A stretch of DNA of 64,000 nucleotides from Escherichia phage CMSTMSU, in sequence record MH494197.1; one strand, written 5' to 3'. The notes under the pieces were generated by a model. It saw nothing but the letters and a program-made list of their open reading frames with translations. It was not told the DNA's origin and ran no database searches. Position 1 is the first letter of the stretch. Every line of letters starts with the position of its first letter. The position numbers were made by a program, and so were the translations under genes. Shown piece by piece: positions 10,720 to 37,720 of the stretch.

Positions 10720-11866
10720 ATGTTACCTTTTGTAAGAATGGTTAAGTACGGGAATATTGCACCAGTACCGAAAAAATAAAGAAAGTTATAGCAGGATATG
10801 ATAATTTATATGTACTATATGGTGATGGTTCGCTATATGGTTGTGGAATCAATAACTATCAACAGTTAAATATTGATGGAACTGCTACACAAAATAATTG
10901 GGTACTAATTACCAATGGTGTTAGTAATGCATGGGCTGGTGGATACAATATTTTATATTTGAAAGAAGATAAATTTATAATGCACGGAACTAATGTCTCA
11001 TTAGGTTTAGGAAATACTACAATTCCATTAGGTGGAGTAGATGTAACTTCTTCATTCCCAGATATCTCTAATATTAAAATGATATCCATTGGTTTTGATT
11101 CAATGCACTATGTTAGTGCTGATGGTACAACTGTATATGGAAGAGGTATGAACACAAATGGTTCTGTTGGTTCAGGTAGTACTTACTCACAGAGTACTTT
11201 CACTTCAGTACTGAATAATGGAACTAATCAGGTTATTGATATATTTGGTAACGTTAATAATACAGTGCTTCTAACATCGAATGGTGAGCTTCGAGCATGT
11301 GGGACAAGTGCTTATGGTTCTATAGGAAATGAAACTGGTAAGTGGACATCGTTTGGTTTAAAATTATCTGGCACTAAAATAATGGGTGGTAATGGGTATA
11401 GTACGCTTGCATATACAAATTCGGGAATGTACCACTCAGGGTGGCAGTTAAATGGGGAACTAGGAAATGGTTTAGATACTAACGTACAGGTATATCCATT
11501 TCAATTTAACTCTAAAACGATAGATAGCAAGATAGATAAAATTGCCAAATCATCATCTGGGTCATATGTTAACATGTACTCAACAACAGAAGGAAAGATA
11601 TATACGACAGGTTCGTTTGGTAAAACGGGTCAACTACTGCATTGAATTTGTTCACCAATACATTAACACTTATAAATTACAATCCAGATACCGCCTCGTT
11701 GTATACGTGCACAAACTTCAGTGTTGTGTATGATGGTAATGAAACTATTGCTGTAAGTGGTAGTCCTACATATGTACCGAGGGCGTTGCCGCTAATAGAT
11801 GGACTACAATTCCATTACCCAAGTAATACTATGCCAGTACTTGATGCTGGCTTTTCTTTTGATTAA
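10720..11866 (+). CDS. leader-tagged RCC1-like repeat protein F1 (frame breaks)
   Basis: AAGGAGG then ATG; N-terminus MLPFVRMVKYGN; stop after 19 codons at an A-run (10766-10772), one extra A restores a reading colinear with paralogue 24753..25907; body = track ORFs 10959..11645 and 11642..11866. Confidence 0.7.
11833..11860 (+). terminator. intrinsic terminator between F1 and F2
   Basis: Hairpin GCCAGTA-CTTGA-TGCTGGC followed by TTTTCTTTT; same element recurs after most array genes. Confidence 0.6.
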
Positions 11867-11893
11867 ATATAGTATAATGAATAAGGAGGAATT

Positions 11894-13017
11894 ATGTTAC
11901 CTTTTGTTAGAATGTTTGATTATGGGAATATAATCGAAGTTAATAATATAAAGAAAAGTGTTGTTAGTTACACTCTTGAAATGTTTCTAATGCAAGATGG
12001 CACTGTATATGCACACGGTGAAGATTCAAACTATAATGCGGGTTTAAGTACACAGTTTGTATCGTTAGGAGCAGTTCAACAAATCACAACTGAAGTTGAT
12101 GACTTATGGTTAGGATCGTTTTCCGTTGTTATTAAAGGTGATAAAATATATGGTTCAGGTTCAACATATGCATTCACGAATTCTAATACTTTCCAACAAG
12201 GATATACTGACTGGGCTGTGTATTTCACTGGTATAGATGTTACCCAAATTAAAAAATGTTATGTGGTTATACAGCATTTATATTAATGAAAGACGGAACA
12301 CTTTATGGAAGAGGATGGAATCGAAGTGGTACATTAGGTTTAGGACATAAAAATTATGTTTCAGCGTGGACTGTACTTGACACTAATGTGGATAATATAT
12401 TTGGCGGTTACCTTGGCGATACATTGTTTAAGATTAAAAACGATGGAACTGTATATGGTTCAGGTTCAAATAACAGCTTTCAAGTTAAAGCAACATCGGG
12501 TGATGCAACCACATTTGTTCCGTTGTTTGATGATATATCTTATGATATAAAATGCAGTTTTGTTTCTGGTGTTGGTTTTGTAATGATAACATCTGATAAT
12601 AAAATATATGCAACTGGAACTACTTTTGCTGGTAGTGGTGCACATAGTAAAGTTTTTGATGTTGGTTTTACTATAGGTGATATGAGTAATATATATCATC
12701 CTGATTCGTTGGACTATTCGACTAGTGTTGTATTTTTAATTAATGCAGATACAAACAAACTAATAGCAACTGGGCATACCCATTTACGGAAGTAGTTCAA
12801 GTTCCTTCCATATTTTACAGCATTTCAAGAATTCAATTTTACATCGTTCAATTCGAATACACGATATAGTGGGTCTTTATACTGGAATACATTTTACGAA
12901 GGTAATAATGTATGGATGAATGGATATAATCCTGAAAATACGGGTGGAAAGAATTTCTCATTGTGTTCAATACCGTTAGATACTATTATTACTAAGCAAA
13001 TTGATTTACCTTTTTGA
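11894..13017 (+). CDS. leader-tagged RCC1-like repeat protein F2 (frame breaks)
   Basis: Track ORFs 11894..12286 and 12256..12795 plus tail; N-terminus MLPFVRMFDYGN; C-terminus ...TKQIDLPF matches ...FTKIDLPK of F7. Confidence 0.7.
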
Positions 13018-13087
13018 ATACTATGCCAGTACTCAAGTACTGGCTTTTATTTTATTAAATATAGTATAATGAATAAAGGAGGGAAAT

Positions 13088-14273
13088 ATGTTACCTTTTG
13101 CAAGAATGGTTAAGTACGGGAATAAACAGCCTATTCCTGAACCAGTTGAGTTCACTGATGTTTTACAGCAACATTATACTAATGCTATGTATCTACATAA
13201 GCCCACGAATACACTATACGGTTATGGTGGTAATAACTTGAGCCAATTAGGTCTAGGGAATCAATCGACAGTTTCTACTTTTACAGTACTGGCAACGCAC
13301 TGTGCAGCCTTTTGGTTAGGCGTTCATGGCTCATTGATGATTGACTTGGATAATAGAATATATTTCACAGGGAATACAGTAGCATTCCCCGATTATGGAG
13401 ATGCAACTCCAGTTAATGGTTATTTTAGAACATGGACTGATGTTACTGCCGCATTTGACAAAATAAATGTACACGCTAATTTAATCAAGAGTGTACATAT
13501 AGGTGAAAGTACTAGAATATTACTACACGATGGAAGAGTAGTTGTTTGTGGTAAAATGCAAATGCCGAATGTGGAACAGGTAACCAAAATCCCATACCAG
13601 TACTAACAGTTGTTACTGGTATGGGTGAAGTTCTCAATTGGCGTGTTCATTACAGGGTACGCACTATCTCAAAACAAATAAAGAAGCATGGTTTTGTGGT
13701 AAGGATAACTTTGGTGAAAGTGGTGCTGGGACTAGCTCATACGTTTTACTAATAAGTTAATACGATCCAACGTCGATTATATAAGTGCTACTTATGATGT
13801 TACGGTGGTTCACTGCCGGTAGGGTGTACTGGAGTGGTAGAAACAATTCTGGACAAGCTGGGAATGGTACTACTTCAACCACAAACCAATTAACTACAGT
13901 TCAGAATTCACAGGTTATAGTGAATATTAGTGATGGTTTCCTGTGTCCTAGTAATATGGGTAACTCAACAATTGGTGCACCTATGGCTCAATACCCATCA
14001 TATGTCAGAGTGCAGGCATCAATACATATGGTCAAGAAGGGACGGAAATACAACAGTAATTACTTCGTGGGGGCGTTTTCTTTAAGTGCGATACAGGGTG
14101 GATATGACAATGTTCTTATGGCATCCAAAGACTGGTCCAGAACAATAATTATAACTAAAGATTATAAATTATATGCATGTGGGGGCTTTAACGGTTCAGG
14201 TGGTAACTTACCGGATGGTACTTCCGTAATTAAAACATTAACATTAATGCCAACGCAGTTATGGCAATCATAG
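13088..14273 (+). CDS. leader-tagged RCC1-like repeat protein F3 (frame breaks)
   Basis: Track ORFs 13088..13606 and 13785..14273; N-terminus MLPFARMVKYGN; repeats of type YGxGxNxxGQLG. Confidence 0.7.
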
Positions 14274-14282
14274 GAGAAAATC

Positions 14283-15404
14283 ATGTTACCTTTTGTTAGA
14301 ATGTTTGATTATGGAAATGAAGCACCTGATCCTAGTTCGGGATTTCGAATAATAAGTACAGGAGACGCATTACTATTAATTACTAAGAGTGGTGATTTGT
14401 GGGTGCGTGGTTATAACCGTTATGGCAAGTTAGGTATAGGTAATAACACCACTACCTATGTACTTGATTGGACGAAGGTTAGAAGTGATGTAAAGTTTGC
14501 GTGTGGTAGTGGATTGGTAACAGTTATCTTTACTAAGGGTAATCGCATATTGTACTGTGGTGACAAATGGTTTGAAACGGGTGGTGTTGGTAGTGCACAG
14601 ATTTTCACATGGACAGATGTTACGCACCAATTTGGGGCAGTAGATTTGAGTACAGTAAGGGATATGAAAATGTCTTATTACACGATTGGATTATTGACTA
14701 CTAATAATCAATTATACGCTAAGGGATATGATAATAACCTATCATTTGGTGGGGTTAGTAATAAGGCGACTGCTGTGTTTATTGCGAATAATGTACAAGA
14801 GTTGTATACGAGTTTAGTTAGTACAATCTACGTTGATACAAGTGGTATATTACATCGTTGTGGCATGAGTGATAACGGTTCGTTGGGTAATAATGTTAAT
14901 TTAACTTCGTATCTAAGTTATTCACAGACTGGTATGACGATTAAGGACATTGGAATGATGACTACGAACACTGGGTTATTATATACTGATTCTAGTGCAC
15001 GCACGAGATATTTTATTGCTGGACAGAACTTGAATAAACAGATGGGTAATGCGGCGGCTGCGAGTGCCATTACGAGTACTTACACAGAGCTTTCTGGTAG
15101 TGTTGATAAGTTTTCTTCTTTATGGGCGAATGATGGGATATTGATGACATTTGCTGTGGGTAAGAACACTAATCAGTTATTTTATGCTGGGATGAATACT
15201 TTTCATGCGAGTGGTGGTGTATCTTCATATGCGGATACATATGAGTTAGTCCCGATGGTGTTTAATGACATACAGGAAGTGTTATGTGCACAGCGTTTAT
15301 CGGTGGTACATGATTCTACGAAGTGGTATTACTGTGGTGATGCTAATTCAATGTATGGTTTACCGGACGTAAGTACTTTTACTGAGTTACCGTTGCCCTT
15401 TTAA
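14283..15404 (+). CDS. leader-tagged RCC1-like repeat protein F4 (intact, 373 aa)
   Basis: Uninterrupted track ORF; N-terminus MLPFVRMFDYGN; GGAG upstream; about seven repeats of (D/N)GxhYxxGxNxxGxLG; starts 9 nt after F3 stop with no terminator. Confidence 0.85.
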   Translation: MLPFVRMFDYGNEAPDPSSGFRIISTGDALLLITKSGDLWVRGYNRYGKLGIGNNTTTYVLDWTKVRSDVKFACGSGLVTVIFTKGNRILYCGDKWFETGGVGSAQIFTWTDVTHQFGAVDLSTVRDMKMSYYTIGLLTTNNQLYAKGYDNNLSFGGVSNKATAVFIANNVQELYTSLVSTIYVDTSGILHRCGMSDNGSLGNNVNLTSYLSYSQTGMTIKDIGMMTTNTGLLYTDSSARTRYFIAGQNLNKQMGNAAAASAITSTYTELSGSVDKFSSLWANDGILMTFAVGKNTNQLFYAGMNTFHASGGVSSYADTYELVPMVFNDIQEVLCAQRLSVVHDSTKWYYCGDANSMYGLPDVSTFTELPLPF

Positions 15405-15412
15405 TAATAGGT

Positions 15413-15440
15413 CAGTACTGAAATATGTACTGGTATTTTT
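15413..15440 (+). terminator. intrinsic terminator after F4
   Basis: CAGTAC-TGAAATAT-GTACTG hairpin followed by GTATTTTT. Confidence 0.55.
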
Positions 15441-15476
15441 GTAAATACTATATAATTTAATTACGGAGATTTTATT

Positions 15477-16653
15477 ATGTTACCTTTTGTTAGAATGTTT
15501 GATTATGGGAACGTCGTTGAGCGACCTGTGGGTACACGTTATACCTGTAGTGACTATAGTGCGACTTATAGTTTAATAAAGGATGGTGTGTTATATGTAT
15601 CTGGGATGAATAACTATTATCAGTTAGGTAATAACACTAACGTAACACGTTACAACGAGTGGTTAAAAGTTCCAGAGACTGATAGTGTTAAGTTTTGTAG
15701 TACTGGTTATAGTCAGACAATGTATATTACTAACAATGGGAGGATAATGATAGCTGGTGAAGATCCTACTTCCAGTGCGACGGCGGTAAGTGTTAAGGTA
15801 TGGACTGATATAACTTCTAGATTTAGTGCAGTTGATACAAAGAAGATTGTTTATATTTCAATAGAACGCTTTGGTGTAATGATGATCATGCAAGATGGTT
15901 CAGTATGGGCGTGTGGAGTTGATAATACTGGTTGGAGTGGGCAGGAAGTAAAACTGTTGGTTTCTTTACTTTCAGACAAATATACACCGGAAGTGCAGGA
16001 AGTGCAGTTGCTGGTACTGCTGGTACTGGTACTGCGAGAATTCTGTTAGCTAATGGAACAATCTTGTCCGCTGGTACTAATACATATCATCAATGTAATG
16101 CTAGTACTGATCCGGCTGTTCTAACATTCACTGAATCATTCCACGGGTTGATCCTTCATTGATATATCAAATCAAGATGTGTAATAACAACTGTATTATA
16201 TTTTGAGTGATAAGAGATATTACGGTACTGGCTGGGAAGTTTTGGTGCATTGGGTGATGGTGATATTACGGGTTCGAATAATAAATTCTATGCAGGTACA
16301 TTGTCAGTTGCTCCTAAAACATGCGTGCTTATATGTCGTATCTATGTAGTTCTTCTGGGGATTCTAGTATGTACATAGGCGATGATAATTTCATATACAC
16401 CTGCGGTTATCGTGGGAGGAACTTAATAAATGCCACTACAGATATTGGTACGTTCACGAAATGCATTCAAAGTGCACAAGGATACAAGAATGGACTTATA
16501 TATAGTGGGAATTATTGTGCTGTAGTTTTTGATCCAGATTTGGGTTCAGGAATGTCATATGCGGTTTCATCACCAAAATTGAATGCACCAGCACCACAGG
16601 CGAGTGTTCCAACATTGGGTATGAGTTCGTTACAAGCTATTATTTTACCATAA
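15477..16653 (+). CDS. leader-tagged RCC1-like repeat protein F5 (frame breaks)
   Basis: Track ORFs 15477..16049, 15932..16162, 16321..16653; N-terminus MLPFVRMFDYGN; variant promoter TATATAAT and GGAG. Confidence 0.65.
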
Positions 16654-16736
16654 CATTATACCAGTACTGAAATATGTGCTGGTATTTTTTTAAATACATT
16701 ATAATTATTATATGGAGATTTTAGTTATGTTACCTT

Positions 16737-17851
16737 TTGTAAGAATGTTTGATTATGGGAATACAGTGGCTGCTCCCACTGGTATAAAGGATTTCAAGCA
16801 AATGGAAGCCACTGTATGGCACTAACATATAGTGGTGAGATGTGGGCTTATGGTACAAGTACAAGTGGATCAATGGGAACCGGATTCACGGTGGGTGCTG
16901 CTGATAAGGGTTGGTACAAGTCTAACATTAGTAATGTTAAATCATTCAGTTCTAATATGCAGACTAGCACAGTGGCTTTGACAAATGATGATAGAGTGCT
17001 AGTTTGTGGCTCAACTAGATTTGACAAATTCAGTACTCCAGATATTGCATCATCTAACCTTGATTGGTTGGATGTTACTGATCATATTCCACAGGAAGTT
17101 ATTGATGCTGGGATGAAGCAAGTTATTAACCACGTATATTATGTTGCCATTTTACTGAAAACAATCTATTATATAGTGTGGCATTATCTTTGGGTAATAC
17201 TAGTACTATAATAGATAGAACATGGAGAAGAAATACATTTGGTGATATACAAGTTGAACGTGTTGTTTCGTTGACACAAACCCCAAGTGGTCCTTTGTGT
17301 ATAGTTCAAGATGCAGACGGATACCAGTATGGTATTGGATATAATGGTAATAAGATTATTGATAATACTTCCACTAATTCATATTCTGTATATACCAAAA
17401 TGGGTACACTTCCTTACAATGAATTTGCCATATCGAATAGCGGGAAATTCAGTTCAGCGGTATTATCAGATGGGAGAAGTGTTTATAGTGGTACATTTCC
17501 AAAGTCATTCAATAATAGTTTTGGTTCATTTTGAAAGTTGGTGCGGTATCAGATACTGTGTTTGGTTTAGATGCAAAAATATGCGTGGTCAATATGGTCA
17601 AAATCAATTACCAATTGCGTCGGCTGATAACAATGCAAGTAATGGCGTTGTGAACCTTCGTAATGTTCCAGCGGGAACACAAACGAAAGACATTCGATTT
17701 ATATGCGGAAATGATGTAAAGAACGTTTATATCATATACACAAATGAAGACGGCATTAGCTCATTTTATGGATTGGGACCAAACTTTGATCAAAATTCCT
17801 CAACATATGCACAATTCGTCAAAGTGGATTTGCGGGGCATTATCAAATTAA
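16737..17851 (+). CDS. leader-tagged RCC1-like repeat protein F6 (frame breaks, 3' end approximate)
   Basis: ATG at 16737 after terminator 16661..16690; N-terminus MLPFVRMFDYGN then early stop; body = track ORFs 16816..17211, 17178..17534 and 5' part of 17311..18324. Confidence 0.6.
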
Positions 17852-17861
17852 GGAGAGAAAT

Positions 17862-18960
17862 ATGTTACCTTTTGTTAGATTGTTTGATTATGGGAATATC
17901 ACACGGTCCTAAAAATATAATTAAAGTTGGTGCTTCTACACAGGGTCAATTCTTATTGACAGATTCACATGATTTATATTACATAGGTAGAAATCAAGGT
18001 GGTGAATCTGGAAATGGAAATACCAACACAGTATCCTCATGGATATTAGTAAGTACAGATGTTTCTAATTTTTTCGTGGGTGATCGTACACTTGTTATTA
18101 TTAAAAATGATAATACGATATGGTCATCAGGTCAAACGTACTGGTTCACATCTTCCACAACTACTTCTTACAGTACTGTATTAGTTGATAGAACCAGTTG
18201 GTTTACCAATGCCATACCAGTAAGTGAAATTGCTGATATAGTATGTTCGTATGGTTTAATATTTGTACTTAGCACTAGTTCAGTACTCTATGGTGCAGGG
18301 CTAATGGATATCGTGGTGCTTTAGGTATTGGTTCATCATCAATTTACACATTAACTCAATGTGCTACTAATGTGCGTAAAGTAATGACGAATGCAAATGA
18401 CAGTATGTATATTACATTAGATAATAAGTTATATAGTTCTGGGTGGAATGACCGTGGATTACATGGCACAGGAACAGAACACAAGTTAACATTTGGGGAC
18501 TGCGTAGTTCTGGTGTAATAGATGCAGCTATTGGTGGACATACACTCAATTACTATAATGGTACATCATATTTCACATGTGGTACAACTCCAAACTTTCT
18601 TAGTTCAGATTCAACTACATTCAAAGCAGTTCCTGTAAGTACTTTACCTAATAATTCACCTTTGTTTATGACAAATTCAGAGGCAACAAGCACGGCTACG
18701 CAAATTATATTAACTAGTGCATATCAGAAAGGTATTGGAAACCGTGGTTTGGGATTAAACAATTCTCAAACGGTGCTATCTATAGTGCTGCTAATTTACA
18801 ATTACCTGTAGAAGTTAGTGAGATTAGTGATGTTGCTTTTAGTGACGGATTAACATCATTATTAACCAAAGACGGAATGTATATAGTACTGGATCGTATT
18901 ACGCCATTCCGTGCAAGTGCAGATGTTGCAGTCTTTACTAAAATTGATTTACCAAAATAA
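17862..18960 (+). CDS. leader-tagged RCC1-like repeat protein F7 (frame breaks)
   Basis: AGGAGAGAAAT then ATG; N-terminus MLPFVRLFDYGN then stop; body = 3' part of track ORF 17311..18324 plus downstream frames ending ...FTKIDLPK. Confidence 0.6.
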
Positions 18961-18966
18961 CATAAT

Positions 18967-18993
18967 GCCAGTACTTGATACTGGCTTTTCTTT
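18967..18993 (+). terminator. intrinsic terminator after F7
   Basis: GCCAGTA-CTTGA-TACTGGC hairpin plus TTTTCTTTGG. Confidence 0.6.
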
Positions 18994-19000
18994 GGTTAAA

Positions 19001-19023
19001 TATAGTATAATGAATAAAGGAGG
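19001..19023 (+). promoter_or_regulatory. conserved array promoter/RBS module (-10 TATAAT at 19006-19011, AAGGAGG at 19017-19023)
   Basis: Block TTAAATATAGTATAATGAATAAAGGAGG nearly identical upstream of 12 of the 17 array genes; no convincing -35 hexamer. Confidence 0.5.
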
Positions 19024-19028
19024 GAATT

Positions 19029-20198
19029 ATGTTACCTTTTGCAAGAATGGTTAAGTACGGGAATATTGCACCTGTTCGCCCTGAAATAAAGAAATTGGAT
19101 GGTAGTCAATTACATGTCGGATTACTATATAGTACTGGTAATATGTATATGCGTGGTTCTGGTTCGAACTACAAGTTAGGTACAGGTGATGCTAGTGATG
19201 TATTAGATGGTTGGGTACATGTACCCTATGAAGTTGATGATTTTTGGGCGTGTGTGTCCGGTACATTAATAAAGACTAAAGACAATAAGTTATATTGTGC
19301 AGGACTATACATGGGTGGATATTTTGGTGCTAGTGGTTCATATGTTAACTGGACTGAAGTAACTTCATTATTTGTGGGTATTAACGTCTCACAAATAAAG
19401 AATATAGAATTTACATCAGCGAGTACTTCCGGTAGTACACTAATATTGATGTTAGATGGTAGTTTATATGGGTTCGGTATGAACAGTAGGTCGGAGTTAG
19501 GTGTTAATAACAAAGTCGTATCTCCTATTCTTATAGATACTGGGGTAAGTTCAATAGGAGCACATAAATTAGGTGGTTCATCGTTCCATTATATAAAAGA
19601 CGGTAAGTACTACAGATGTGGGACCGCGATTGGTAGTAATATAGGAAGTTCTTCTTTAACTACATTTACTGAATTGAGTATTGCTGATAATGTTATATCT
19701 ATGCAAATATTATTTGACAACGTACAGTTATTATGTTTTGGTAGTACTGGATATAGTATCTATATGGCTGGTTCTAATGATTATGGTGGAAGAGGTGTTG
19801 GTGGTAGTACTGTTTACACTACATTCAGGAAAATAGATCTTACTGGATTTGGTGTTGTTCCCAGTGAAATACTATTTGAAAATGCAGGGAATGGTTATGT
19901 TAATATATCAACTGATAGTACTGGCATATATACATGTGGTGGTGGTGCTGGTGTTAATGGTTTAGGTAGACCGAGTAATGTTATATCAAGTTCACAGTTG
20001 GGTTTGATTGAGTTCAGTACAGGATTATACCCAGCAAATATAAGTCGTGTATTTTCACAGAGTTCATCTTCTGTTATATATTGTATAGTTAATAATGAAT
20101 TGTACTGGGCTGGGAGTAATTCATATTTTACTGATCAAACTACAAATACTGGTACACAATTTTCATTTATTAAGATGAAGGATATGCCTTCTGCTTAG
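19029..20198 (+). CDS. leader-tagged RCC1-like repeat protein F8 (intact, 389 aa)
   Basis: Uninterrupted track ORF; N-terminus MLPFARMVKYGN; Gly/Ser/Thr/Asn-rich repeats. Confidence 0.85.
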   Translation: MLPFARMVKYGNIAPVRPEIKKLDGSQLHVGLLYSTGNMYMRGSGSNYKLGTGDASDVLDGWVHVPYEVDDFWACVSGTLIKTKDNKLYCAGLYMGGYFGASGSYVNWTEVTSLFVGINVSQIKNIEFTSASTSGSTLILMLDGSLYGFGMNSRSELGVNNKVVSPILIDTGVSSIGAHKLGGSSFHYIKDGKYYRCGTAIGSNIGSSSLTTFTELSIADNVISMQILFDNVQLLCFGSTGYSIYMAGSNDYGGRGVGGSTVYTTFRKIDLTGFGVVPSEILFENAGNGYVNISTDSTGIYTCGGGAGVNGLGRPSNVISSSQLGLIEFSTGLYPANISRVFSQSSSSVIYCIVNNELYWAGSNSYFTDQTTNTGTQFSFIKMKDMPSA

Positions 20199-20205
20199 AT
20201 TTTAT

Positions 20206-20235
20206 GCCAGTACTCTGTACTGGCATTTCTTTATT
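20206..20235 (+). terminator. intrinsic terminator after F8
   Basis: GCCAGTAC-TCT-GTACTGGC hairpin plus ATTTCTTTATT. Confidence 0.6.
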
Positions 20236-20265
20236 AAATATAGTATAATGAATAAAGGAGGAAAT

Positions 20266-21470
20266 ATGTTACCTTTTGTAAGAATGTTTGATTATGGGAA
20301 TGAAGCACCTGTGCCAGTTGGTATAAAGATGGTAAAAGTTTTACAGAATAATGTGTTTATTTTATTAGAAGACGGAAGATTATATGGCAGAGGGCATAAT
20401 TTTTACTATCAATTAGGTACTGGTAGTAGTTCTCCTACTATAGTTGAAGAGTGGGTTTTATGTTTAACTGATGTAAAGGAATTTTGGACTACTGGTGATA
20501 CACAAGGAATATTAGTACGTAAAAATGATGGCACATGGTGGAGTACTGGTACTCAAATCTATCGTGGTGTTAATACTACTTATCGTGTATGGACAGAAAT
20601 ACTTGGTATTTTTAATGATGTGAATGACACATATAGTAAAATAGTTATAGGAAGCGGCGTTACATTATTATTAACAATAGATAATAAATTATATAAGATG
20701 GGTGACAATAACAACGGTGAAGTTTTACTGGGGCTGTTGGTCAAAGAGTATCAGTACTGACATTGACACCAGAAGTTAATGTTAAAGATATTGGTGTAAC
20801 CGCGAATAATGCTTCATTTGTATTATACAATGATGGAACATTAAAGTACAGTGGGAATAAATCTAGTATTGGTTCGACTGGTACGACTAGTACAACTCCC
20901 ACATTGACTACTGTTACTACTGGAGTATTACAGATAAATTCGGAAAATGCATATAGTGCTAATTACGTATTAAAGAGTGATGGGCTATATGTATTCGGTT
21001 CACAAATAGATGGACAGTTGGGTGATGGCACTGATGGCACTATTAACAGTCTTAGAACAATCACAAAGATACCAGCTTCTAGTATTCCTAGTACTGCTAT
21101 TGATTACATAGGTGGTTCTAATTTTGAAGCACACGTTAGAGCAGGTGGTATATGGTATTTCGCTGGGCGTGGAAACGCTTCTGGAGATGGAATAACGAAC
21201 TCTAATGTTATTAAAACATGGCGTGCATGTACTAATATAACTGAACCAGTTCCATATGATAAAATGACACATGGTTATATGATAACATTCATGTTAAAAA
21301 CGGTGAATTATATGGTTCAGGGAATGGTGGTAGAACTGCTGGTATGGGTACAATTCCGTATGAAGAAGAAAATGCCGGAAATACAGGATTATTTAAAAAA
21401 TAGTTACACCGAGTTAAAATTAAAAGCCAGTACTCTGTACTGGCATTTCTTTGTATTAAATATAGTATAA
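20266..21470 (+). CDS. leader-tagged RCC1-like repeat protein F9 (frame break)
   Basis: Track ORF 20248..20760 trimmed to MLPFVRMFDYGN Met, plus track ORF 20763..21470. Confidence 0.65.
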
Positions 21471-21488
21471 TGAATAAAGGAGGGAATT

Positions 21489-22595
21489 ATGTTACCTTTT
21501 GCAAGAATGGTTAAGTACGGGAATATTGCACCAGTTCCGGTAGTTCCTACAATAAAAGATTTTAAGATTGGATTTTCACATGAAGTGTTATTGGACAGTG
21601 CAGGTGATGTATGGGGTATTGGATACAATACAGATGGGCAGTTGGCTTTTTGGATGCAAACACCAATTCATTAGGTGCGTGGTCTAAGATATATACTGAT
21701 GTTCGATTAATTGGAGTTACTGCTAGATATACAGTGGTAGTTACTAATAATAATAGAATACTATACGCAGGAAATAACTTAATTTCTAGTACTACCACTC
21801 TTGGGTGGACCGATATAACTACCAGTATGGGTCCGGTTGCGGTGGATAGCATCGATGCATTATATTGTACAGAGGGTATGATGCATATTAAAACTTCAGA
21901 TGGTTCTTTATATGCATATGGTCGTAACATGAACGCAAACAGTGGTGTTACTGGTGGTGTTATTAGTGTTGCAACTAAGGTTAATTTGCCTTCTGCTGTA
22001 AATGACATGCGATATACGTTTAGTTATGGTTCAGTACTATGTAGATTGGATACGACTTCTATATACGCATGGGGACGAAACATAAATGGTGAATTAGGTC
22101 AGGGTAATGCAACAGCCATTGTTACTCCAAAACTATTGTCTGGTTCTTCTATTGCAATGGGTACTTCGTATAATGCTACTGCAATTGTTTCTGGTTCTGC
22201 ATTGTTGCTTACATGTGGTGGACAAAACAGTGGGCAGTTAGGTAATGGTATTACAACTGATGGTAATGTATACACCTTTGGTGTCAGGACATACCAGCGA
22301 TCTTAATACAATAAGAAGTCCAGTGGATTGCAGTACAACGTACACCTCTGCATTTATGAGTCCAGATGGTATATATTACACTGGTGCTAACCGAAGTATG
22401 TTTGGTGGTATTAGTGGTGGTGCTACCGTTGGAATATATACTAAATGTAGTGATTTACCAATAACATATTCTAATATAATTCAGTGGAGTAGTGGTACTA
22501 TTGGTGGTGCTATATGTAGTAGTACAGAGTTATACCAATGTGGTATAGGTAGATACATTGCTGGTGATGGTGCGAGCACAACCGTATGGATTTAG
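21489..22595 (+). CDS. leader-tagged RCC1-like repeat protein F10 (frame breaks)
   Basis: Track ORFs 21489..21674, 21611..22306, 22245..22595; N-terminus MLPFARMVKYGN; break near a T-run. Confidence 0.65.
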
Positions 22596-22695
22596 GAAGA
22601 CACCATTACCTTGGGATACTTATTGACATTACGCCAGTACTTGATACTGGCTTTTCTTTTGATTAAATATAGTATAATGAATAAAGGAGGGAATT

Positions 22696-23884
22696 ATGTT
22701 ACCTTTTGTTAGAATGTTTGATTATGGGAATATCACACCTGAACCTCTTCAAATTAAGAAAATAATACCAACTGATACTGAGGTTGTTGTACTTTATACC
22801 GACGGTCAACTATACGCACGAGGCAGTAATAGTTATGGGAAGTTTGGTAGAGGAAATAATAATGCAGTAAGGTCGTGGACATTAATTAGAGAAAATGTCA
22901 AAGATTGCTGGATGACACAAGGAACTTTGTTAGTTCAAGATAAGGACTTAAATTATTTTTATTGTGGATATGGTAGTCATATTGGTTTAGAAACTAGTAC
23001 TACATCATTTTTAAGTTATAACCAATATATTGAAAATTTGTACACACAAAGTTCAGGTACTTCAATTAAACAGATGTATGCAGGTACTACTTGGTTTACT
23101 TTCTTAATGGATAATAATACAATATGGAGTACTGGTTGGAGTGGGGCTAGACAATTCGCTGATGGTACTGGTAGTACTCAACAAATAACAGATGGATCAT
23201 TTGTAAAAGCTGTCACGCCTAATGTTGATATTGCACGAATACAGTCAACAAATAGCTGTGTAATGTTTTATGATACACAAAATAATTTATATATTGGTGG
23301 TAGTACATCAGGTATAAGTACTACTGATACATGGACTCCATACAATCAATATACTTTATATCAGCCAAGTACAACATATACAAAAACATTACAATATGTT
23401 GTATGTACAATTGGTGCAGTCAGTGCTTTAGTGGAGAATCCAAGTACAGGAGCACGTCAGTTCCTAGTGGGTGGGAACGCCAATAATGGGGCATGGGGTA
23501 ATAACACTACGTCTAGTACAGCACGAGCAGTATTAGGAAATAATAGTACAACCTTACCACCGTACTTTGTATTCAATTCATACTGGATACCCAGCACAAT
23601 CTAGTATACTAGTTACGAGTTCTGGTGTATATGCAACAGGTTTAAATGCGAGTAGTTATGCTGGTTCATTGGGTGTTGGTTCTAATGTTACCATTGGTAA
23701 ATTTACTGCATGTCCATTGCCGTCAGAAATAACATATTCTATGTATGATAAAATAAAAATATATCGAGGGTCGTTACGTACTTTCCTAACTGCTGATATG
23801 AAAAATATATATTCAACCGGAACTTATGATGATGGTGGTCCTAGTACAAATAGATATGTACTGGATACACCTAGACAATTGTAA
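22696..23884 (+). CDS. leader-tagged RCC1-like repeat protein F11 (frame break)
   Basis: Track ORFs 22696..23604 and 23567..23884; N-terminus MLPFVRMFDYGN. Confidence 0.7.
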
Positions 23885-23948
23885 AAAAGCCAGTATCAAG
23901 TACTGGCTTTTCTTTGTTAAATATAGTATAATGAATAAAGGAGGAATT

Positions 23949-24683
23949 ATGTTACCTTTTGCTAGAATGGTTAAGTACGGGAATAAAATTGAATATAAGC
24001 CACATGGTGAACAATTAATCACGACAATAGGAACAACACAATTTACAGTTCCTGCTGGCGTTACCGAAATATCAGTATGTGTTATTTCGCCGGTGGTCAA
24101 CGTGGTGCTGGCGGCGGCTTATCGTGGCGTAATAATATTCCGGTTTCTGGTGGTGAGTACTTAAGTGTTTCTCTTACATCCCAACACTACTACAGCAGTT
24201 GAAAACGGTTTATATCGTGGAACTGAAAAACTATGTGTTAGCTTCACTGGTGCATATACGGTTGGTGGACTAGGTGGAAAAGCTGCTAACGCTATTAATG
24301 ATGGTGGTGGTAATGGTGGCAACACTGGTTTAAGTGGTGGTGCAGTCATTGGTGGTGGTGCTGGTGGCTACACTGGTAAAGGTGGTAACGGAAATGCAAT
24401 CACTGGTGAAAATGGTGCTGGGGGCGGCGGTGGTGGTGGTGCATTCTATAATACCTCGTTCATTGGTACGGGTGGTGGTACTGGTATCATTGTTCAAGGT
24501 GCTAATGGTATTGGTGGTAGCTACGATGGTTCATATAATGGTGGTGCTGGTAGTGGTGGTGCTGGTAATAGGTATGGTGGTGGTGGTAGTATATGGGATA
24601 ATTCTTCTTATACGGCGGCTGGTGGTGGTGCTGTGCGAATAATATGGGGACGTGGGAGATATTATCCTAATAATTCAGTCTAA
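23949..24683 (+). CDS. leader-tagged glycine-rich domain protein F12 (frame break)
   Basis: Track ORF 23826..24164 trimmed to MLPFARMVKYGN Met, plus track ORF 24165..24683 (GGGNGGNTGLSGG..., GAGGGGGGGAF); alternative frame across the break gives FAGGQRGAGGGLSWRN. Confidence 0.65.
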
Positions 24684-24752
24684 AATATAGGCCAGTACTT
24701 GATACTGGCTTTTCTTTGAATTAAATATAGTATAATGAATAAAGGAGGAAAT

Positions 24753-25907
24753 ATGTTACCTTTTGTTAGAATGTTTGATTACGGGAATATTGCACCTGAA
24801 GCTCCAAAGATAAAGAAAGTACTGTGCGGTCTTGATAATTTGTACGTCCTCTATGACGATGGCTCACTTTATGGTTGTGGGGTTAATTCGTATTTTCAGT
24901 TAAACGTTACAAATACAGCAACAAGAAATACTTGGATATTAATTTCAGAAGGTGTTACTGATGCATGGGCTGGGGCGTACAATATTCTTTATATCAAGGG
25001 TGAAGAATTCATAATGCATGGAGTTACCACACAATTAGGCACAGGAAATACTATGATTCCGTTGGGTGGTTTGAATGTTACTTCTTCATTTCCACATATA
25101 TCTAATATTAAAATGATATCAATCGGTGCAGATACAATGCACTACGTTGATGCTAGTGGTTCGATTGTTTATGGTAGAGGCATGAATGGTAACTATTCAC
25201 TCGGTGGTGGGTATTCCACGGCTCAGAGTACTTTTGTTTCAGTTATTAATACCGGAGCTAATACAGTCCTTGATATATTGGGTACACAGAATAACACATT
25301 AATATTAACATCAAATGGTGAACTTCTCGGTTGTGGGAGTAGTGAGTATGGCTCACTTGGCGTAAGTCAAGGACAGTATACTACACTAGTAAGCAGGTTA
25401 ACCAGTGTTAAACTGTTTGGTGGTAACAGTACTGGTACTCTTGCTTATTCAGCCAGCAATATATACAACGCAGGTTGGCAGTATGTTGGTCAACTTGGTA
25501 ACGGTATTACAACGAACACACTAGTATATCCATTTGCATTTAACTCCACTACTATTGATAGTAACATACATAAAATATCAAAATCAAGTACATCTTCACG
25601 TGTTAATATGTACGCAACAACCGAAGGAAAGATATATAGTACTGGTGAATTTGGTAGAAATGGTTCTGGTGGTAGTTTGAGTAGATTCACCAATACACTA
25701 ACTTTAGATAATTACAACCCAGAAAAATCAGCATTATACACATGTGCACATTTTAGTATAGTATTTGATGGTAATAATCAAATTTATGCTTGTGGTTCTT
25801 TTTGTATGTGCGTTCTATTACCACGAACTCATGGTCTGCAATTACAATGCCGAAATGATACTATAAAACTATGCCAGTACTTGATGCTGGCATTTCTTTT
25901 GTATTAA
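24753..25907 (+). CDS. leader-tagged RCC1-like repeat protein F13 (intact, ~384 aa)
   Basis: Track ORF 24735..25907 trimmed to MLPFVRMFDYGN Met; colinear paralogue of F1. Confidence 0.8.
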   Translation: MLPFVRMFDYGNIAPEAPKIKKVLCGLDNLYVLYDDGSLYGCGVNSYFQLNVTNTATRNTWILISEGVTDAWAGAYNILYIKGEEFIMHGVTTQLGTGNTMIPLGGLNVTSSFPHISNIKMISIGADTMHYVDASGSIVYGRGMNGNYSLGGGYSTAQSTFVSVINTGANTVLDILGTQNNTLILTSNGELLGCGSSEYGSLGVSQGQYTTLVSRLTSVKLFGGNSTGTLAYSASNIYNAGWQYVGQLGNGITTNTLVYPFAFNSTTIDSNIHKISKSSTSSRVNMYATTEGKIYSTGEFGRNGSGGSLSRFTNTLTLDNYNPEKSALYTCAHFSIVFDGNNQIYACGSFCMCVLLPRTHGLQLQCRNDTIKLCQYLMLAFLLY

Positions 25908-25936
25908 ATATAGTATAATGAATAAAGGAGGAAAAT

Positions 25937-27070
25937 ATGTTACCTTTTGCAAGAATGGTTAAGTACGGAAATAAAAGACCATCTAATAATATCAAAAGAT
26001 TTCATGTACAACCAATAACAGTGTTTTGGTGCTCACCGAAAGTGGAGATTTGTATGGTTTTGGATTCAATTCAGGTGGTGAACTTGGCACTGGTGCAAAA
26101 CTAGTGTTACTTCAGTTATTCAAATTGACACTGGAGTTGATGATGTATGGGGTGGTAGTCTATGTGCAATGTACAGAAAAGGCGATGAATTCTTTGGCAG
26201 CGGGACGGTTCTTATTATGGTTCAAGTGCTGTTAACTCAACCACATTTGTAAATGTAACACACATATTCCAAGATATAGATATTCTTAATATTAAGAAAA
26301 TTAAAATGACAACAGGTTTGTTTATATTAATGCAAAACGGCAACTTATATGGATGTGGGGTAAACACCAATTGTCAATTTGGTACTGGTGAGGCAGTGAA
26401 TTTTCGTTATCCTATAGCTACATTAACACAAACGGATGTTGTTGATTTTGATATTTTAGGAAACTCTAGTATAATATTAAAGACCGATGGGTACATGTAC
26501 AGTGCGGGTGATAATGGTCGTGGACAACTTGGTAGTTCTACTGCAACCACACTTCTGGTATATACACAAATTAGTAAATTTCCAAACGTAACCAATTTGG
26601 ATCTGTTCGGACACTCACAAGTTACTTCATTATTCAAAGATAGTGATGGTAAAACGTGGTTGAGTGGTAATAGTTATGGTATTGATTACCCAGTAGTAGC
26701 TACAACATTATTCAGTAAAGAAGCACCAGTACCTGAAGGTACATTTCGTTTTATCAACACAAGGGCAGGGTCAAATACACCAATAATATGTACACCCACT
26801 GGGTATTATGTTGCTGGTACTAACCCTTATGGTGCATATGGTATAGGTACGAATGTAACTCTGACAACATTCACAAGAATGGATTCTATGGATAGATACA
26901 TATCTGATTATAATAATGTTCCTGTTTTCGATGGATGTTTCTATGGGACATATTTTGCAGTTGGGGAACGTCTGTTTGGTGCAGGTAATGGTAATACTGG
27001 TAATGTTCCGGATATACTGGATCACAGCGTAACTATGTGGAAATTAATTATAAAAATAATTAAACCTTAA
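25937..27070 (+). CDS. leader-tagged RCC1-like repeat protein F14 (frame breaks)
   Basis: ATG at 25937 behind AAGGAGG; N-terminus MLPFARMVKYGN; body = track ORFs 26026..26235 and 26306..27070. Confidence 0.65.
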
Positions 27071-27138
27071 TACTATGCCAGTACTTGATACTGGCTTTTC
27101 TTTGGTTAAATATAGTATAAAGAATAAAGGAGGGAATT

Positions 27139-28308
27139 ATGTTACCTTTTGCTAGAATGGTTAAGTACGGGAATACTATACCCAAACCCGCTGGTGTGAA
27201 GAAAATTAGTACTTCCATTAATCACGTTGGGATGTTATTCGATAATGGAAATTTATATCTACGTGGGGTGGTGGTGAGTATAAGTTAGGAAATGACAGTA
27301 CTGGATTCGTACAGAATGGTTGGGTTAAGTGTCCATATAGCGTTGCTGATGTTTGGTGCTTCACTTACGCGACAATTATACTTACTACAAGTGGTGAATT
27401 ATACTTAGCTGGACAATTGGGTTATGTTGGTGTAGTTGCAGCGAGCGTACGGATGGACTAATATTACATCTAATTTATCCTCAATACCTGCACTTAGTAC
27501 TATACAAAACATAGCTTATACTGAGACTACAATTTACAATGGTGCTATATTAATTTTGTTAAGCAACGGGGACTTATATGGTATAGGTCGTAATGGTGGT
27601 GGTGTATTAGGCGTTTCTGGAATCCAATCAACTGCACTTAAGATTGACACAGGTGTTACTTTAATTGCTGGCACAGACCGTTCAGCGGCGTTACATTATG
27701 TGAAAAATGGTCAATACTACAGATGTGGGAATAATTCTCGCTACAACCTAGGAACAAGCTCTTCTGTTTTATCTACATTTACGGTAAGTACAGATATCAC
27801 AGGAACCGTACTGGGATTGCATGTACTACAAATGCGACTTCAGTACTGACATCATATAATGGTACTATTAGAGTGTATAGTGCTGGGACGAATACCGATT
27901 ATACGTTAGGTATTGGTTATGGAGATACCAGTATAATAATGAGTCCATTTAGTGCTACACCTCCAATTTATGGTATTGTACCAGATGCGGCATCACTGAA
28001 TAATTCTTGTATTAATTCTAATATGATTGCGATGACACAGGGTGGTAAATTGTATACATGTGGTAATGGTGTTGCTCTTGGTAGAGAAATCACTGCATCG
28101 ACACCTAGAACGGCGTACTATCCAGTACTATTTGAGGATTCAAATACTGCACTTGATGTTAATGCTTTTGCAGTGCAGGGGGTTCCGGTGTGTTATACGC
28201 ATTAGTGGGGGCAAATGAGGTTTACTGGTGTGGTAGTGGTTCTATGTTCCGGAACAGAGTGCAGGTACACAACAAGTTAAAATGAAGAAAATGATTTTAC
28301 CAGAATAG
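27139..28308 (+). CDS. leader-tagged RCC1-like repeat protein F15 (frame breaks)
   Basis: ATG at 27139; N-terminus MLPFARMVKYGN; body = track ORFs 27436..27849 and 27873..28205; upstream -10 is TATAAA. Confidence 0.6.
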
Positions 28309-28317
28309 GAGGAAAAT

Positions 28318-29449
28318 ATGTTACCTTTTGCAAGAATGGTTAAGTACGGGAATATAAAAGTAAAGAGTACTATCCAAAAAGTTATCCTTGGTGGTGGTGG
28401 TCAATGTGTGGTAACATTACTCAGTGATGGTAGAGTGTATGGACGTGGATACAATACAACATATGGGTTGGGTACTGGTACAACAACATTCGTAAGTGAT
28501 TGGGTATTAATGGGCGATAATATTGTTGATATCCATTCAAATGGTGTTACTGGCACATTCCTTATTACCAAAGAAAATAGAATTTTGTATTCTGGTTTTG
28601 CGACACCAATCAATGGCACAACATCACATTATACACGTTTCACTGATTTAACATCAACTGTATTTGCTGCGGTGGATGTTAGTAATATTAAAACAATTAC
28701 GGGAAATGGTAATGTTACAATGGTTCTTTTGAATGATGGTTCACTTTATGGGAGTGCAAATACAGGGTTATAGGTAATGGTAGTAACGTTGCATTATCAA
28801 CACAAACATATGTGACTAATGATGTGCGTGATGTGAAAACATATCCATCAATGAACACTATAACAAAAATAATAATCAAATATTGGCTAGTGGTATTTTA
28901 TACCAAGGCGTGAACGGTACAAATTCATCAATAAACACGTCTTCATATACATTACTGTACACATTACCGAGTTCTGATTGTTTTCAATTTGCATTTGATA
29001 CATATACATTTGGATATGTTGACCCTAGTACTAACACTTCTTATATAAGAGGTATACCAATAAATGGTTCATTAGGTAATGGCGTTACTAATAATACAGC
29101 AGTTACAACATGGGTTACTAAAGTTTGGAATACACCAATTGATAGTTCTATACCTAATAAATCATATACAACTAACCATGTCTCCTTGTTCAATGATGGA
29201 AACTTATGGACAACTGGTGCATCTAGTGTCGGCTATTCCAATGGTACAAATAGCACAACAGCTAATACATGGACCAGTTCATCTAATTTACCATTCAACA
29301 CTAATAACATAACAGACTATGCTTTTGGTGGTAGTATTACTGTGGTGGTAATCGACTATAGGACTATGTACATACTAGCTAACAACGCCATTGCTGGTAC
29401 TGCTACGACAACTTATAAATTTGAGCCATATAATTCTCCACCAGTTTAA
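28318..29449 (+). CDS. leader-tagged RCC1-like repeat protein F16 (frame break)
   Basis: Track ORFs 28318..28773 and 28883..29449; N-terminus MLPFARMVKYGN; starts 10 nt after F15 stop behind GGAGG. Confidence 0.65.
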
Positions 29450-29479
29450 TATAATGCCAGTACTATGTACTGGCTTTCT

Positions 29480-30128
29480 TTACATATTATATAATGTGAA
29501 TGCTGTCACTTTACCAGTTGTTGTTAGTTCATTATAAAGATACTCCAATATTCTCGCACACTCTAAGTATATCTCGATATCATCATGAATAAGTGAGTAC
29601 TGAAATAGCTGTTCTTCAGATAATTTGTATTGACTTCCTTTTAATGAATTGAGAATATCTTTCACATCATCAAGTACTGGGTAAAGTACGAAATCTTCAT
29701 CATATTTTGAAGCAATAAATTCAAATCCACCACCATCAGTACTAGATATACCAATCAGTACTTTATCAACCAAGTTAATGTTTATATAACGGTTGTGATT
29801 TGGGTGAATTGAAATCTCAAACATACGAGTACTGTTACAATCAACATCAATATACAAATATACATCGTTGAATTTATAAGTTAAGCAACCGTACTCAAGA
29901 AAATCAGAGCAAATAATTGATGAGTTTTTCTCGTCTCTGCGTAATGCATCTTGATATTCTTTTCACGCATAAGTAATTCGAACTTTGCACTAAACTTGCC
30001 ACCAGTAAGATAATTAGTATTAGGACGTTTGTAACTTGCAACTGGTCGGTGGGATGATGTAAAGTATTTTTTGTGAATCGTTTCTGTTTAGTGAAATATT
30101 CTTGATAGAACTTACTTCTTTTATTCAT
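29480..30128 (-). CDS. hypothetical protein encoded antisense within the array (frame break)
   Basis: Track ORFs 29904..30128 and 29480..29857 joined by a shifted frame (GGKFSAKFELLMREKNIKMHY...); sits between F16 and F17. Confidence 0.4.
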
Positions 30129-30205
30129 GAGTACCTCAATTAAATCGCTGTAAAATTGTACATTATAAAATGATTAAATAAAGTATAACACAAGGAGATT
30201 TTATC

Positions 30206-31324: not shown

Positions 31325-31729
31325 AATTAATCCAGTACTATTATAGTACTGGATTTTTATTATAACATACGTTTTTACGAATAGTATTGTGGATATTTTT
31401 AAGTAGTTCACACCTTTACACAACCCATAAAATACACCAGCACATACACCAAATGCAGGTATCATACATGCAAACATCGTTATCAATTCCCACATCTCCA
31501 TACCATCTTGATTCGGTCCAAGGTCAAAGATAACAACCAAAACCAAACCTGTGATACTTAGCATATAATATGCCATGAAGATAATAAAAGAAACAATACC
31601 AACATCAGAGCGAACTGAATTTAGCATATTATATACTGGGGTTACACAGAAGTAATACAATAACCAAATCAAAGAACCTAAACTAAACACAATAATAGTA
31701 ATGATTGAAAATATTTCACGATAACTCAT
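31313..31729 (-). CDS. small membrane protein (WYFK-motif family)
   Basis: Track ORF with predicted TM helices; start of minus-strand block. Confidence 0.5.
   Translation of the reverse strand: MSYREIFSIITIIVFSLGSLIWLLYYFCVTPVYNMLNSVRSDVGIVSFIIFMAYYMLSITGLVLVVIFDLGPNQDGMEMWELITMFACMIPAFGVCAGVFYGLCKGVNYLKISTILFVKTYVIIKIQYYNSTGLILII
31322..31360. terminator. bidirectional terminator closing the array
   Basis: Perfect 13-bp inverted repeat AATCCAGTACTAT-TA-TAGTACTGGATT flanked by A/T runs. Confidence 0.6.
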
Positions 31730-37533: not shown

Positions 37534-37720
37534 AAGTATTATTGAACTTTTAAATTTATATGTTTCTTTTTCTTCTCCAGTTTTTGAACTTTGTATATTT
37601 TTATAAATTCCATGAATTCATCATTGGTCATTGTTTCAGCATCCAACAATACCCAACTTCACAATCTCATACCCGTCCAGATATCCGTAGGAACACTCAG
37701 GTGTTTCATAAGATGAACCA

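What the first reader, a model, noticed from the sequence alone, without database searches (positions are those of the whole stretch)
10760..10780. Pervasive single-base frame breaks, several at homopolymer runs
F1 is stopped after 19 codons at an A-run; one extra A restores a frame colinear with intact F13. Similar breaks at A, T or G runs split many array genes and also the sigma factor, P-loop NTPase, HNH endonuclease and kinase-like genes. Hitting conserved genes this widely favours indel sequencing error over biology; slippage at runs is a minor alternative.
Basis: inference. Interest (0 to 1): 0.5.

Follow-up and report, generated by a model that had tools for sequence, protein, structure and literature searches.

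The report
Nanopore-type deletion errors, not biology
The many broken genes in this jumbo E. coli phage sequence come from missing bases of the kind left by uncorrected Oxford Nanopore assemblies (shortened single-base runs and damaged CCWGG methylation sites), so the breaks are a sequencing artefact and the genes are intact.

Summary
F1 starts at ATG 10720, runs 19 codons and stops at TAA 10777-10779, just after an A6 run (10771-10776). Three close relatives have A7 there in an otherwise identical gene.

The window is an Asteriusvirus-like (121Q/PBECO4 group) E. coli jumbo phage, about 98% identical to eight independent genomes.

- In a 5-way alignment of 26.4 kb the window has 113 private deletions and 0 private insertions. 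Each relative has 0-3 private indels.
- Across the 54 kb that aligns to a relative there are 282 deletions and 16 insertions, spread evenly.
- Shortening rises with run length: 35% of 5-mers, 70% of 6-mers, both 7-mers.
- All 16 CCWGG (Dcm) sites in the relatives' consensus carry a deletion in the window; 0 of 11 GGWCC do. The whole window has no CCWGG at all.
- 43 of 62 genes examined are frameshifted, including virion proteins and the sigma factor.
- The window's private substitutions are 61% synonymous, as in relatives, so the genes are under purifying selection.

This matches the published error profile of Nanopore consensus sequences from native Enterobacteriaceae DNA. The finding itself is of low interest.

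In passing I found a multi-copy, roughly 600-nt structured RNA family that is not in Rfam.

The parts
10720..10779 (+). Truncated F1 reading frame: ATG, 19 codons, TAA
   Evidence: Sequence read directly. tblastn with WPEC5 RCC1-like proteins places the gene start at 10720.
10771..10776 (+). A6 run. The true sequence is inferred to be A7, so one A was lost.
   Evidence: The alignment with WPEC5, WPEC3 and fEgEco12 orthologues shows A7 in all three. The flanks are 100% identical.
10720..11826 (+). Full F1 gene, an RCC1-like beta-propeller paralogue and the orthologue of WPEC5 CDS0095 (369 aa). It is broken by three deletions at ~10770, ~11621 (A5->A4) and ~11778 (CCAGG).
   Evidence: Pfam RCC1_2 and RCC1-like domain hits on the intact fEgEco12 orthologue.
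10720..31330 (+). Tandem array of 17 RCC1-like gene units. Among the 15 units that align closely to a relative, only unit 4 (14283-15404) and unit 8 (19029-20198) have a coding sequence free of detected deletions. Units 2 and 15 have no close relative to compare against but are also interrupted early.
   Evidence: Unit starts from tblastn. Per-unit list of deletions. In WPEC5, fEgEco12, BF17 and Turkey3 the array genes are annotated as intact CDS of about 370-390 aa, apart from one conserved ~245-aa member and, in Turkey3, two shorter and one longer CDS.
24735..25907 (+). Its last ~25 codons are out of frame because of a T6->T5 deletion and a 3-nt deletion at CCAGG.
   Evidence: Alignment of the 3' end with Turkey3, BF17 and fEgEco12.
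56518..57480 (-). RNA polymerase sigma factor gene with 4 private deletions, 3 of them frameshifting
   Evidence: Pfam Sigma70_r2 and r3 on the intact fEgEco12 orthologue.
54636..55428 (-). Gene annotated as HNH endonuclease, with 2 frameshifting deletions
   Evidence: The name comes from the relatives' annotation. Pfam gave no hit.
42509..43989 (-). Virion structural protein gene (495 aa in relatives) with 6 frameshifting deletions
   Evidence: Annotation.
33860..34626 (-). P-loop (AAA-like) NTPase gene split between two reading frames
   Evidence: tblastn of the fEgEco12 g572 protein gives HSPs in frames -1 and -2. Weak AAA-family Pfam hits, of which only PF00004 (AAA) clears its cut-off.
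37644..64000 (.). Region of the strict 5-way comparison: 113 private deletions, 0 private insertions. All 16 CCWGG sites of the relatives' consensus carry a deletion in the window.

Best explanation
The frame breaks are base-calling and consensus errors in an unpolished, or insufficiently polished, Oxford Nanopore assembly of native phage DNA. They are not features of the phage genome.

Shown here: bases are missing from the window at two kinds of site. One is homopolymer runs, with a probability that rises steeply with run length. The other is the Dcm methylation motif CC(A/T)GG, where the 5-methylcytosine signal is miscalled by models not trained on it. The true genome almost certainly has A7 at 10771-10776 and intact genes throughout, as in its 98%-identical relatives.

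Inferred: the platform (Nanopore), and that the DNA came from a dcm+ E. coli host.
For: 1. Identity. The window is an Asteriusvirus-like jumbo phage, 98% identical to Turkey3, WPEC3, WPEC5, fEgEco12, BF17, vB_Ec-M-J, EC.P1 and Ecwhy_1.

2. Private and one-directional. There are 113 private deletions and 0 private insertions in 26.4 kb, against 0-3 private indels in each relative. Gap openings are 116-118 for window versus relative and 5-9 for relative versus relative. Window-wide the count is 282 deletions to 16 insertions, at 24-47 deletions per 8-kb bin.

3. Run-length dependence. The fraction of runs shortened is 0.2% for 1-mers, 1.6% for 3-mers, 6% for 4-mers, 35% for 5-mers, 70% for 6-mers and 2 of 2 for 7-mers. 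G/C runs fail earlier: 10% of 3-mers and 41% of 4-mers. The window has 6 runs of exactly six bases and none longer in that region, against 28-32 six-base runs and 4-7 longer ones in each relative.

4. Dcm motif. 16 of 16 CCWGG sites are deleted, against 0 of 11 GGWCC, 0 of 44 GATC and 0 of 29 CWCGG. The whole window has 0 CCWGG (shuffle expectation ~47) but 25 GGWCC. Relatives have 14-17 CCWGG in the same 26 kb.

5. No selection on the deletions. 43 of 62 CDS are frameshifted, including virion proteins. Coding A/T runs of 5 or more are shortened at 41%, against 69% for intergenic ones. For G/C runs of 3 or more the figures are 15% and 19%.

6. Selection on the substitutions. The window's private substitutions are 61% synonymous and 66% at codon position 3, like relatives at 57-73% synonymous.

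7. Published profile. Wick et al. 2019 (PMC6591954) report that Nanopore consensus errors on native Enterobacteriaceae DNA are dominated by Dcm-motif errors and then by homopolymer-length errors, at about Q22 for basecallers of that period. The rate here is about 0.5%.
Against: - I could not see reads, quality values or sequencing metadata. The source record was not found in IMG/VR, JGI metagenomes or the gene-position index. The platform is therefore inferred from the error signature alone.
- About 28% of deletions (80 of 282) lie neither in a run of 3 or more nor at CCWGG. Many of these sit next to runs or in diverged intergenic DNA, where some are probably real differences or alignment shifts.
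- The window has somewhat more private substitutions than any relative (174 against 45-129). Some of these may also be errors, and a few real indels may be hidden among the artefacts.
Confidence: 0.95

Rival explanations
1. The breaks are a sequencing artefact from another indel-prone platform (454, Ion Torrent flow chemistry, or PacBio CLR) rather than Nanopore.
For: Flow-based platforms also miscount homopolymers, and the length dependence seen would fit them.
Against: Flow chemistries sequence amplified, unmethylated DNA and have no reason to fail at CCWGG. Here 16 of 16 CCWGG sites are hit and 0 of 11 GGWCC. From general knowledge, flow platforms give both over- and under-calls and PacBio CLR errors are mostly insertions; here the split is 113 deletions to 0 insertions.
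Confidence: 0.03
2. The breaks reflect genuine large-scale pseudogenisation: the sequence comes from a decaying or defective phage genome whose genes really are broken.
For: Frameshifts are found in most genes.
Against: - The genome stays 98% identical and colinear with viable isolates.
- Substitutions show normal purifying selection, and only 3 of 158 private coding substitutions are nonsense.
- No insertions accompany the 113 deletions.
- A decay process would not remove exactly the central bases of every CCWGG site.
- Virion structural genes with up to 6 frameshifts are incompatible with the propagating phage particle one would have to have sequenced.
Confidence: 0.01
3. The breaks come from biological slippage at runs. 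This could be programmed ribosomal frameshifting, transcriptional slippage, or phase-variable homopolymer tracts controlling the RCC1-like paralogue array.
For: The F1 break sits in an A-run near the 5' end of a gene that belongs to a large paralogue family. That is the sort of place where contingency loci occur.
Against: - Relatives encode F1 in a single frame with A7, so no recoding is needed.
- The same deletions occur at the same rate in all gene classes and in intergenic DNA.
- The direction is always minus.
- Many breaks are at CCWGG, which is not a slippery sequence.
Confidence: 0.01

Closest known systems
Oxford Nanopore (R9-era) consensus error profile on native Enterobacteriaceae DNA (Wick, Judd & Holt 2019, Genome Biol 20:129; PMC6591954)
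   Same: Errors concentrate at the Dcm motif CCAGG/CCTGG and at homopolymers of 3 or more bases. The residual consensus error is about 0.5% (roughly Q22-23). The result is frameshifted genes throughout an otherwise correct assembly.
   Different: In that benchmark Dcm sites made up about 70% of the errors of then-current basecallers. Here homopolymer deletions dominate (about 57%) and CCWGG accounts for about 14%. This probably reflects the AT-rich, run-rich, CCWGG-poor phage genome and an unknown basecaller version.
Homopolymer miscalls of flow-based sequencing (454, Ion Torrent)
   Same: Single-base length errors whose frequency rises with run length.
   Different: Those platforms have no dependence on a methylation motif and give both insertions and deletions. 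Here all CCWGG sites are hit and all errors are deletions.
Programmed frameshifting and transcriptional slippage in phage genes (for example the tail assembly chaperone G/GT)
   Same: A reading frame that changes at a short run of identical bases.
   Different: Those sites are conserved among relatives, are specific to one gene, and require the shift to make the product. Here relatives are in frame and the breaks occur everywhere.
Phase-variable contingency loci with homopolymer tracts
   Same: Length change of a run near the 5' end of a gene in a paralogue family.
   Different: Contingency tracts are long, restricted to a few genes and vary in both directions. Here 41% of all coding A/T runs of 5 or more bases are shortened and none is lengthened.

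Membership tests
Nanopore consensus-error artefact | The indels are private to the one assembly, while independent assemblies of close relatives agree with one another | tested here: met
   113 private indels in the window against 0-3 in each of four relatives. Relative-versus-relative gap openings are 5-9.
Nanopore consensus-error artefact | Strong bias towards deletions | tested here: met
   113 deletions to 0 insertions in the strict private set. 282 to 16 window-wide.
Nanopore consensus-error artefact | Error probability rises with homopolymer length | tested here: met
   0.2% for 1-mers, 6% for 4-mers, 35% for 5-mers, 70% for 6-mers, 2 of 2 for 7-mers. The run-length distribution is truncated.
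Nanopore consensus-error artefact | Systematic errors at the Dcm motif CCWGG on native DNA | tested here: met
   16 of 16 CCWGG sites deleted against 0 of 11 GGWCC. There are 0 CCWGG in 64 kb.
Nanopore consensus-error artefact | Raw reads or metadata show Nanopore data, and the deletions disappear on accurate resequencing | not testable with these tools
   The source record was not found and there is no read access.
Pseudogenisation | Relaxed selection on substitutions (synonymous and non-synonymous changes near neutral expectation; nonsense changes common) | tested here: not met
   The window's private substitutions are 61% synonymous and 66% at codon position 3, as in relatives. Only 3 of 158 are nonsense.
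Programmed frameshift / transcriptional slippage | The out-of-frame arrangement and slippery site are conserved in relatives | tested here: not met
   The WPEC5, WPEC3 and fEgEco12 orthologues are single in-frame ORFs with A7.
Phase-variable contingency locus | Tract-length variation restricted to particular genes and occurring in both directions | tested here: not met
   The deletion rate is uniform across the window and across 43 of 62 genes of all classes. There are no private insertions.

The most novel reading that the evidence does not exclude
A small minority of the breaks could be genuine. For example, real length variation in the A-run at the 5' end of F1, or in other RCC1-like array genes, could give this phage phase-variable expression of a 17-member beta-propeller paralogue family, hidden beneath a blanket of sequencing errors. 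My data cannot tell one real deletion from about 280 artefactual ones of the same kind.
Probability: 0.03. Interest if true: 0.4.

Novelty: not a real feature. Interest (0 to 1): 0.08.

Why it matters
The main value is as a data-quality warning. Roughly 70% of the genes in this sequence are falsely fragmented. Any ORF-based annotation, pseudogene call, protein-family search or motif count on it will mislead unless the sequence is polished or frameshift-corrected first. One example is the apparent total avoidance of CCWGG, which could be misread as restriction avoidance.

The CCWGG signature also gives a small biological hint. The phage DNA appears to have been essentially fully Dcm-methylated when it was sequenced.

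The side observation of a multi-copy, covariation-supported, roughly 600-nt RNA family in Rak2-like jumbo phages is potentially more interesting than the finding itself.

Tried and rejected
- **Source record.** I searched for an exact 42-mer spanning the F1 A6 allele in IMG/VR and in JGI metagenome contigs. I also looked up the two clean array proteins exactly. Nothing was found, so the platform could not be read from metadata.
- **The record at >=99% identity reported.** A wider search found no record at >=99%. It was probably a short local piece.
- **Tandem Repeats Finder on the array.** It gave no rows because the units are too long and too diverged. I defined the units by tblastn instead.
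- **tRNA and Rfam scans.** Scans of the window and of relatives found nothing.
- **PA5oct RNA-seq ncRNAs.** I compared ncRNA001 and ncRNA002 (PMC7318152) with the new RNA family by motif search. There was no clear match, only a weak resemblance in ncRNA001, and I left it unresolved.
- **Rejected readings.** Pseudogenisation, programmed frameshifting and phase variation were rejected for the reasons given under the rival explanations.

Full report
**What the window is.** Megablast against the phage collection shows that the window belongs to the 121Q/PBECO4 group of E. coli jumbo phages (Asteriusvirus). It is about 98% identical and colinear over tens of kilobases with Turkey3, WPEC3, WPEC5, fEgEco12, BF17, vB_Ec-M-J, EC.P1 and Ecwhy_1. 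Those relatives were isolated in different countries. Their annotations show uninterrupted genes across this region. The tandem array of RCC1-like genes is annotated mostly as CDS of about 370-390 aa, with one conserved shorter member and a few shorter CDS in Turkey3.

**The observation.** The F1 gene starts at ATG 10720. After 19 codons it meets TAA at 10777-10779, immediately after an A6 run at 10771-10776. I aligned F1 with its orthologues in WPEC5, WPEC3 and fEgEco12. Across the coding sequence the window is identical to them except at three places:
- A7 has become A6 at the reported site.
- A5 has become A4 at about 11621.
- GTACCAGGGGG has become GTACC-GAGGG at about 11778, which is a CCAGG site.

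One added A restores the frame, although only as far as the next missing base.

**How widespread the breaks are, and whether they exceed normal variation.** I built a five-way MAFFT alignment of window 37644-64000 with four relatives.
- Relatives differ from one another by 286-427 substitutions but only 5-9 gap openings. The window differs from each relative by about 400 substitutions and 116-118 gap openings.
- Counting only events unique to one sequence, the window has 113 private deletions and no private insertion. The relatives have 0-3 private indels each.
- I tiled the whole window with its best-matching relative (54.1 kb alignable at >=93%). This gave 282 deletions against 16 insertions, with 24-47 deletions in every 8-kb bin.
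- In the RCC1-like array (17 units, 10720-31330), among the 15 units that align closely to a relative only units 4 and 8 have coding sequences free of deletions. Units 2 and 15 have no close relative to compare against but are also interrupted early.
- Of 62 annotated genes between 37.9 and 63.4 kb, 43 carry at least one frameshifting deletion. These include the sigma factor (3), the HNH endonuclease (2), an HslV-like protein (3) and two virion structural proteins (6 and 1).
- The P-loop NTPase at 33860-34626 and a DUF4379-like repeat protein at 35058-36563 are also split between frames.

**The sequence context of the deletions.** The chance that a run is shortened rises steeply with its length: 0.2% of single bases, 1.6% of 3-mers, 6% of 4-mers, 35% of 5-mers, 70% of 6-mers and both 7-mers. 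G/C runs fail earlier than A/T runs. As a result the window's run-length distribution is truncated. In that 26-kb region it has six runs of exactly six bases and none longer, where each relative has 28-32 six-base runs and 4-7 longer ones.

The deletions that are not in runs turned out to sit at CC(A/T)GG.
- All 16 CCWGG sites in the relatives' consensus carry a deletion in the window.
- None of 11 GGWCC, 44 GATC or 29 CWCGG/CCGWG sites does.
- The whole 64-kb window contains no CCWGG at all (shuffles expect about 47) but has 25 GGWCC.
- Window-wide, 107 deletions are in runs of 5 or more, 55 in runs of 3-4, 40 at CCWGG and 80 elsewhere. Many of the 80 lie next to runs or in diverged intergenic DNA.

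**Selection tests.** Real frameshifts in an evolving phage lineage would be purged from genes. Instead:
- 41% of all coding A/T runs of 5 or more are shortened (69% of intergenic ones).
- 15% of coding G/C runs of 3 or more are shortened (19% of intergenic ones).
- 88 of the 113 events fall in the 87% of columns that are coding.
- The window's private substitutions in the same genes are 61% synonymous and 66% at codon position 3. This is indistinguishable from the relatives (57-73% synonymous), and only 3 of 158 are nonsense changes.

The genes have been evolving under purifying selection, and the deletions were never exposed to it.

**Interpretation.** The signature has three parts: deletions only, run-length dependence, and complete failure at the Dcm motif. 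This is the published signature of Oxford Nanopore consensus sequences from native Enterobacteriaceae DNA. Wick, Judd and Holt (PMC6591954, read) classify consensus errors into Dcm-motif, homopolymer and other errors. They report that default models perform poorly at CCAGG/CCTGG and that homopolymer-length errors come next. Consensus quality in their benchmark was around Q22, which is comparable to the roughly 0.5% found here.

Flow-chemistry platforms would explain the runs but not the methylation motif or the one-sidedness. Pseudogenisation, programmed frameshifting and phase variation each fail a defining test (see the membership table). The platform attribution remains an inference, because I could not find the source record or its reads.

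I put the artefact explanation as a whole at about 0.98, and Nanopore specifically at about 0.95. The feature is not real, and the finding has low scientific interest beyond the warning it gives about any annotation of this sequence.

**Seen in passing.** The 650-bp gene-free gap between the sigma-factor gene and the next gene downstream (window 55865-56517) is better conserved than its flanking genes: 95% identity to PBECO4, against about 85%. It also has homologues in Mimasvirus, Eneladusvirus and Munch-like jumbo phages. There are two to five matching places per genome (four in nearly all Asteriusvirus records). All eight copies whose surroundings I examined lie in gaps of about 600-700 bp without substantial genes and, in all but one case, are co-oriented with both flanking genes.

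I aligned 14 copies and predicted a structure of 68 pairs in 14 helices.
- 97.9% of cells are paired, against 36-48% when partners are slid by 1-3 columns.
- 33 pairs show compensatory changes, against 5-9 in the slid controls.
- No shuffle out of 500 reached the observed covariation score.
- Frequent G-U pairs indicate transcription from the window's minus strand.
- No Rfam 15 family matches any of the nine copies scanned, and no tRNA was found.

This looks like an undescribed, multi-copy, roughly 600-nt structured RNA of Rak2-like jumbo phages. I did not establish its ends, its expression or its function. Four of the window's deletions fall inside its copy, including a run of 7-9 C in relatives cut to C4.

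Noticed in passing
window 55935-56449 (minus strand), within the gene-free gap 55865-56517: This is one copy of a conserved, multi-copy, roughly 600-nt structured RNA candidate. BLAST finds two to five matching places per genome (four in nearly all Asteriusvirus records). It also occurs in Mimasvirus (CBB, GAP32, XbC2), Eneladusvirus (Serratia BF, Yersinia fHe-Yen9-04) and Salmonella phage Munch. All eight copies examined lie in gaps of ~600-700 bp without substantial genes. On a 14-sequence alignment (A4), 68 predicted pairs are 97.9% paired, and 33 have compensatory changes against 5-9 in the slid controls. There is no Rfam 15 match and no tRNA. Ends, expression and function are unknown.
   Followed up: partly
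whole window; e.g. 11778, 13803, 17904, 25811, 30976: Every CCWGG site was miscalled. This implies that the phage DNA was essentially fully Dcm-methylated when sequenced, so it was grown on a dcm+ host and was accessible to the host methylase. The apparent total absence of CCWGG must not be read as restriction-site avoidance, because relatives have 14-17 sites per 26 kb.
   Followed up: partly
window 10720-31330 (+ strand): This is a tandem array of 17 RCC1-like beta-propeller paralogues. Each has its own upstream TATAAT-type box and Shine-Dalgarno sequence (TATAATGAATAAAGGAGGAAATATG, 4 near-exact copies). Those examined also have a GCCAGTACT...CTGGC hairpin after the stop codon. Units 2 (11894-13087) and 15 (27139-28317) have no match at >=93% in the six relatives' loci fetched, so array content varies between isolates.
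   Followed up: partly
window 36636, 37352, 41803, 42481, 44055, 44833, 48409, 56492 (minus strand): There are eight near-identical copies of an 18-nt hairpin with a UUCG-type loop, GGTTGAC-TTCG-GTCAGCC (one copy has TTTG). At the sites read it is followed by a T-run. The hairpins lie between or at the ends of minus-strand genes and look like a stereotyped intrinsic terminator. Shuffles expect 0 copies.
   Followed up: partly
window 6229-10395 (minus strand): This is a run of many small ORFs of about 60-78 aa in head-to-tail order. It matches a block of about 21 annotated 57-75-aa hypothetical genes in WPEC5 and WPEC3, interrupted there by one 219-aa gene. It is probably another paralogue array.
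   Followed up: no
window 34076-36909 and 1100-5450: These stretches have no match at >=93% in the close relatives fetched. The first holds a diverged AAA-like NTPase and a DUF4379-like protein with internal repeats, only about 40-55% identical in amino acids to the Turkey3 and fEgEco12 versions. These are variable regions of the genome.
   Followed up: partly
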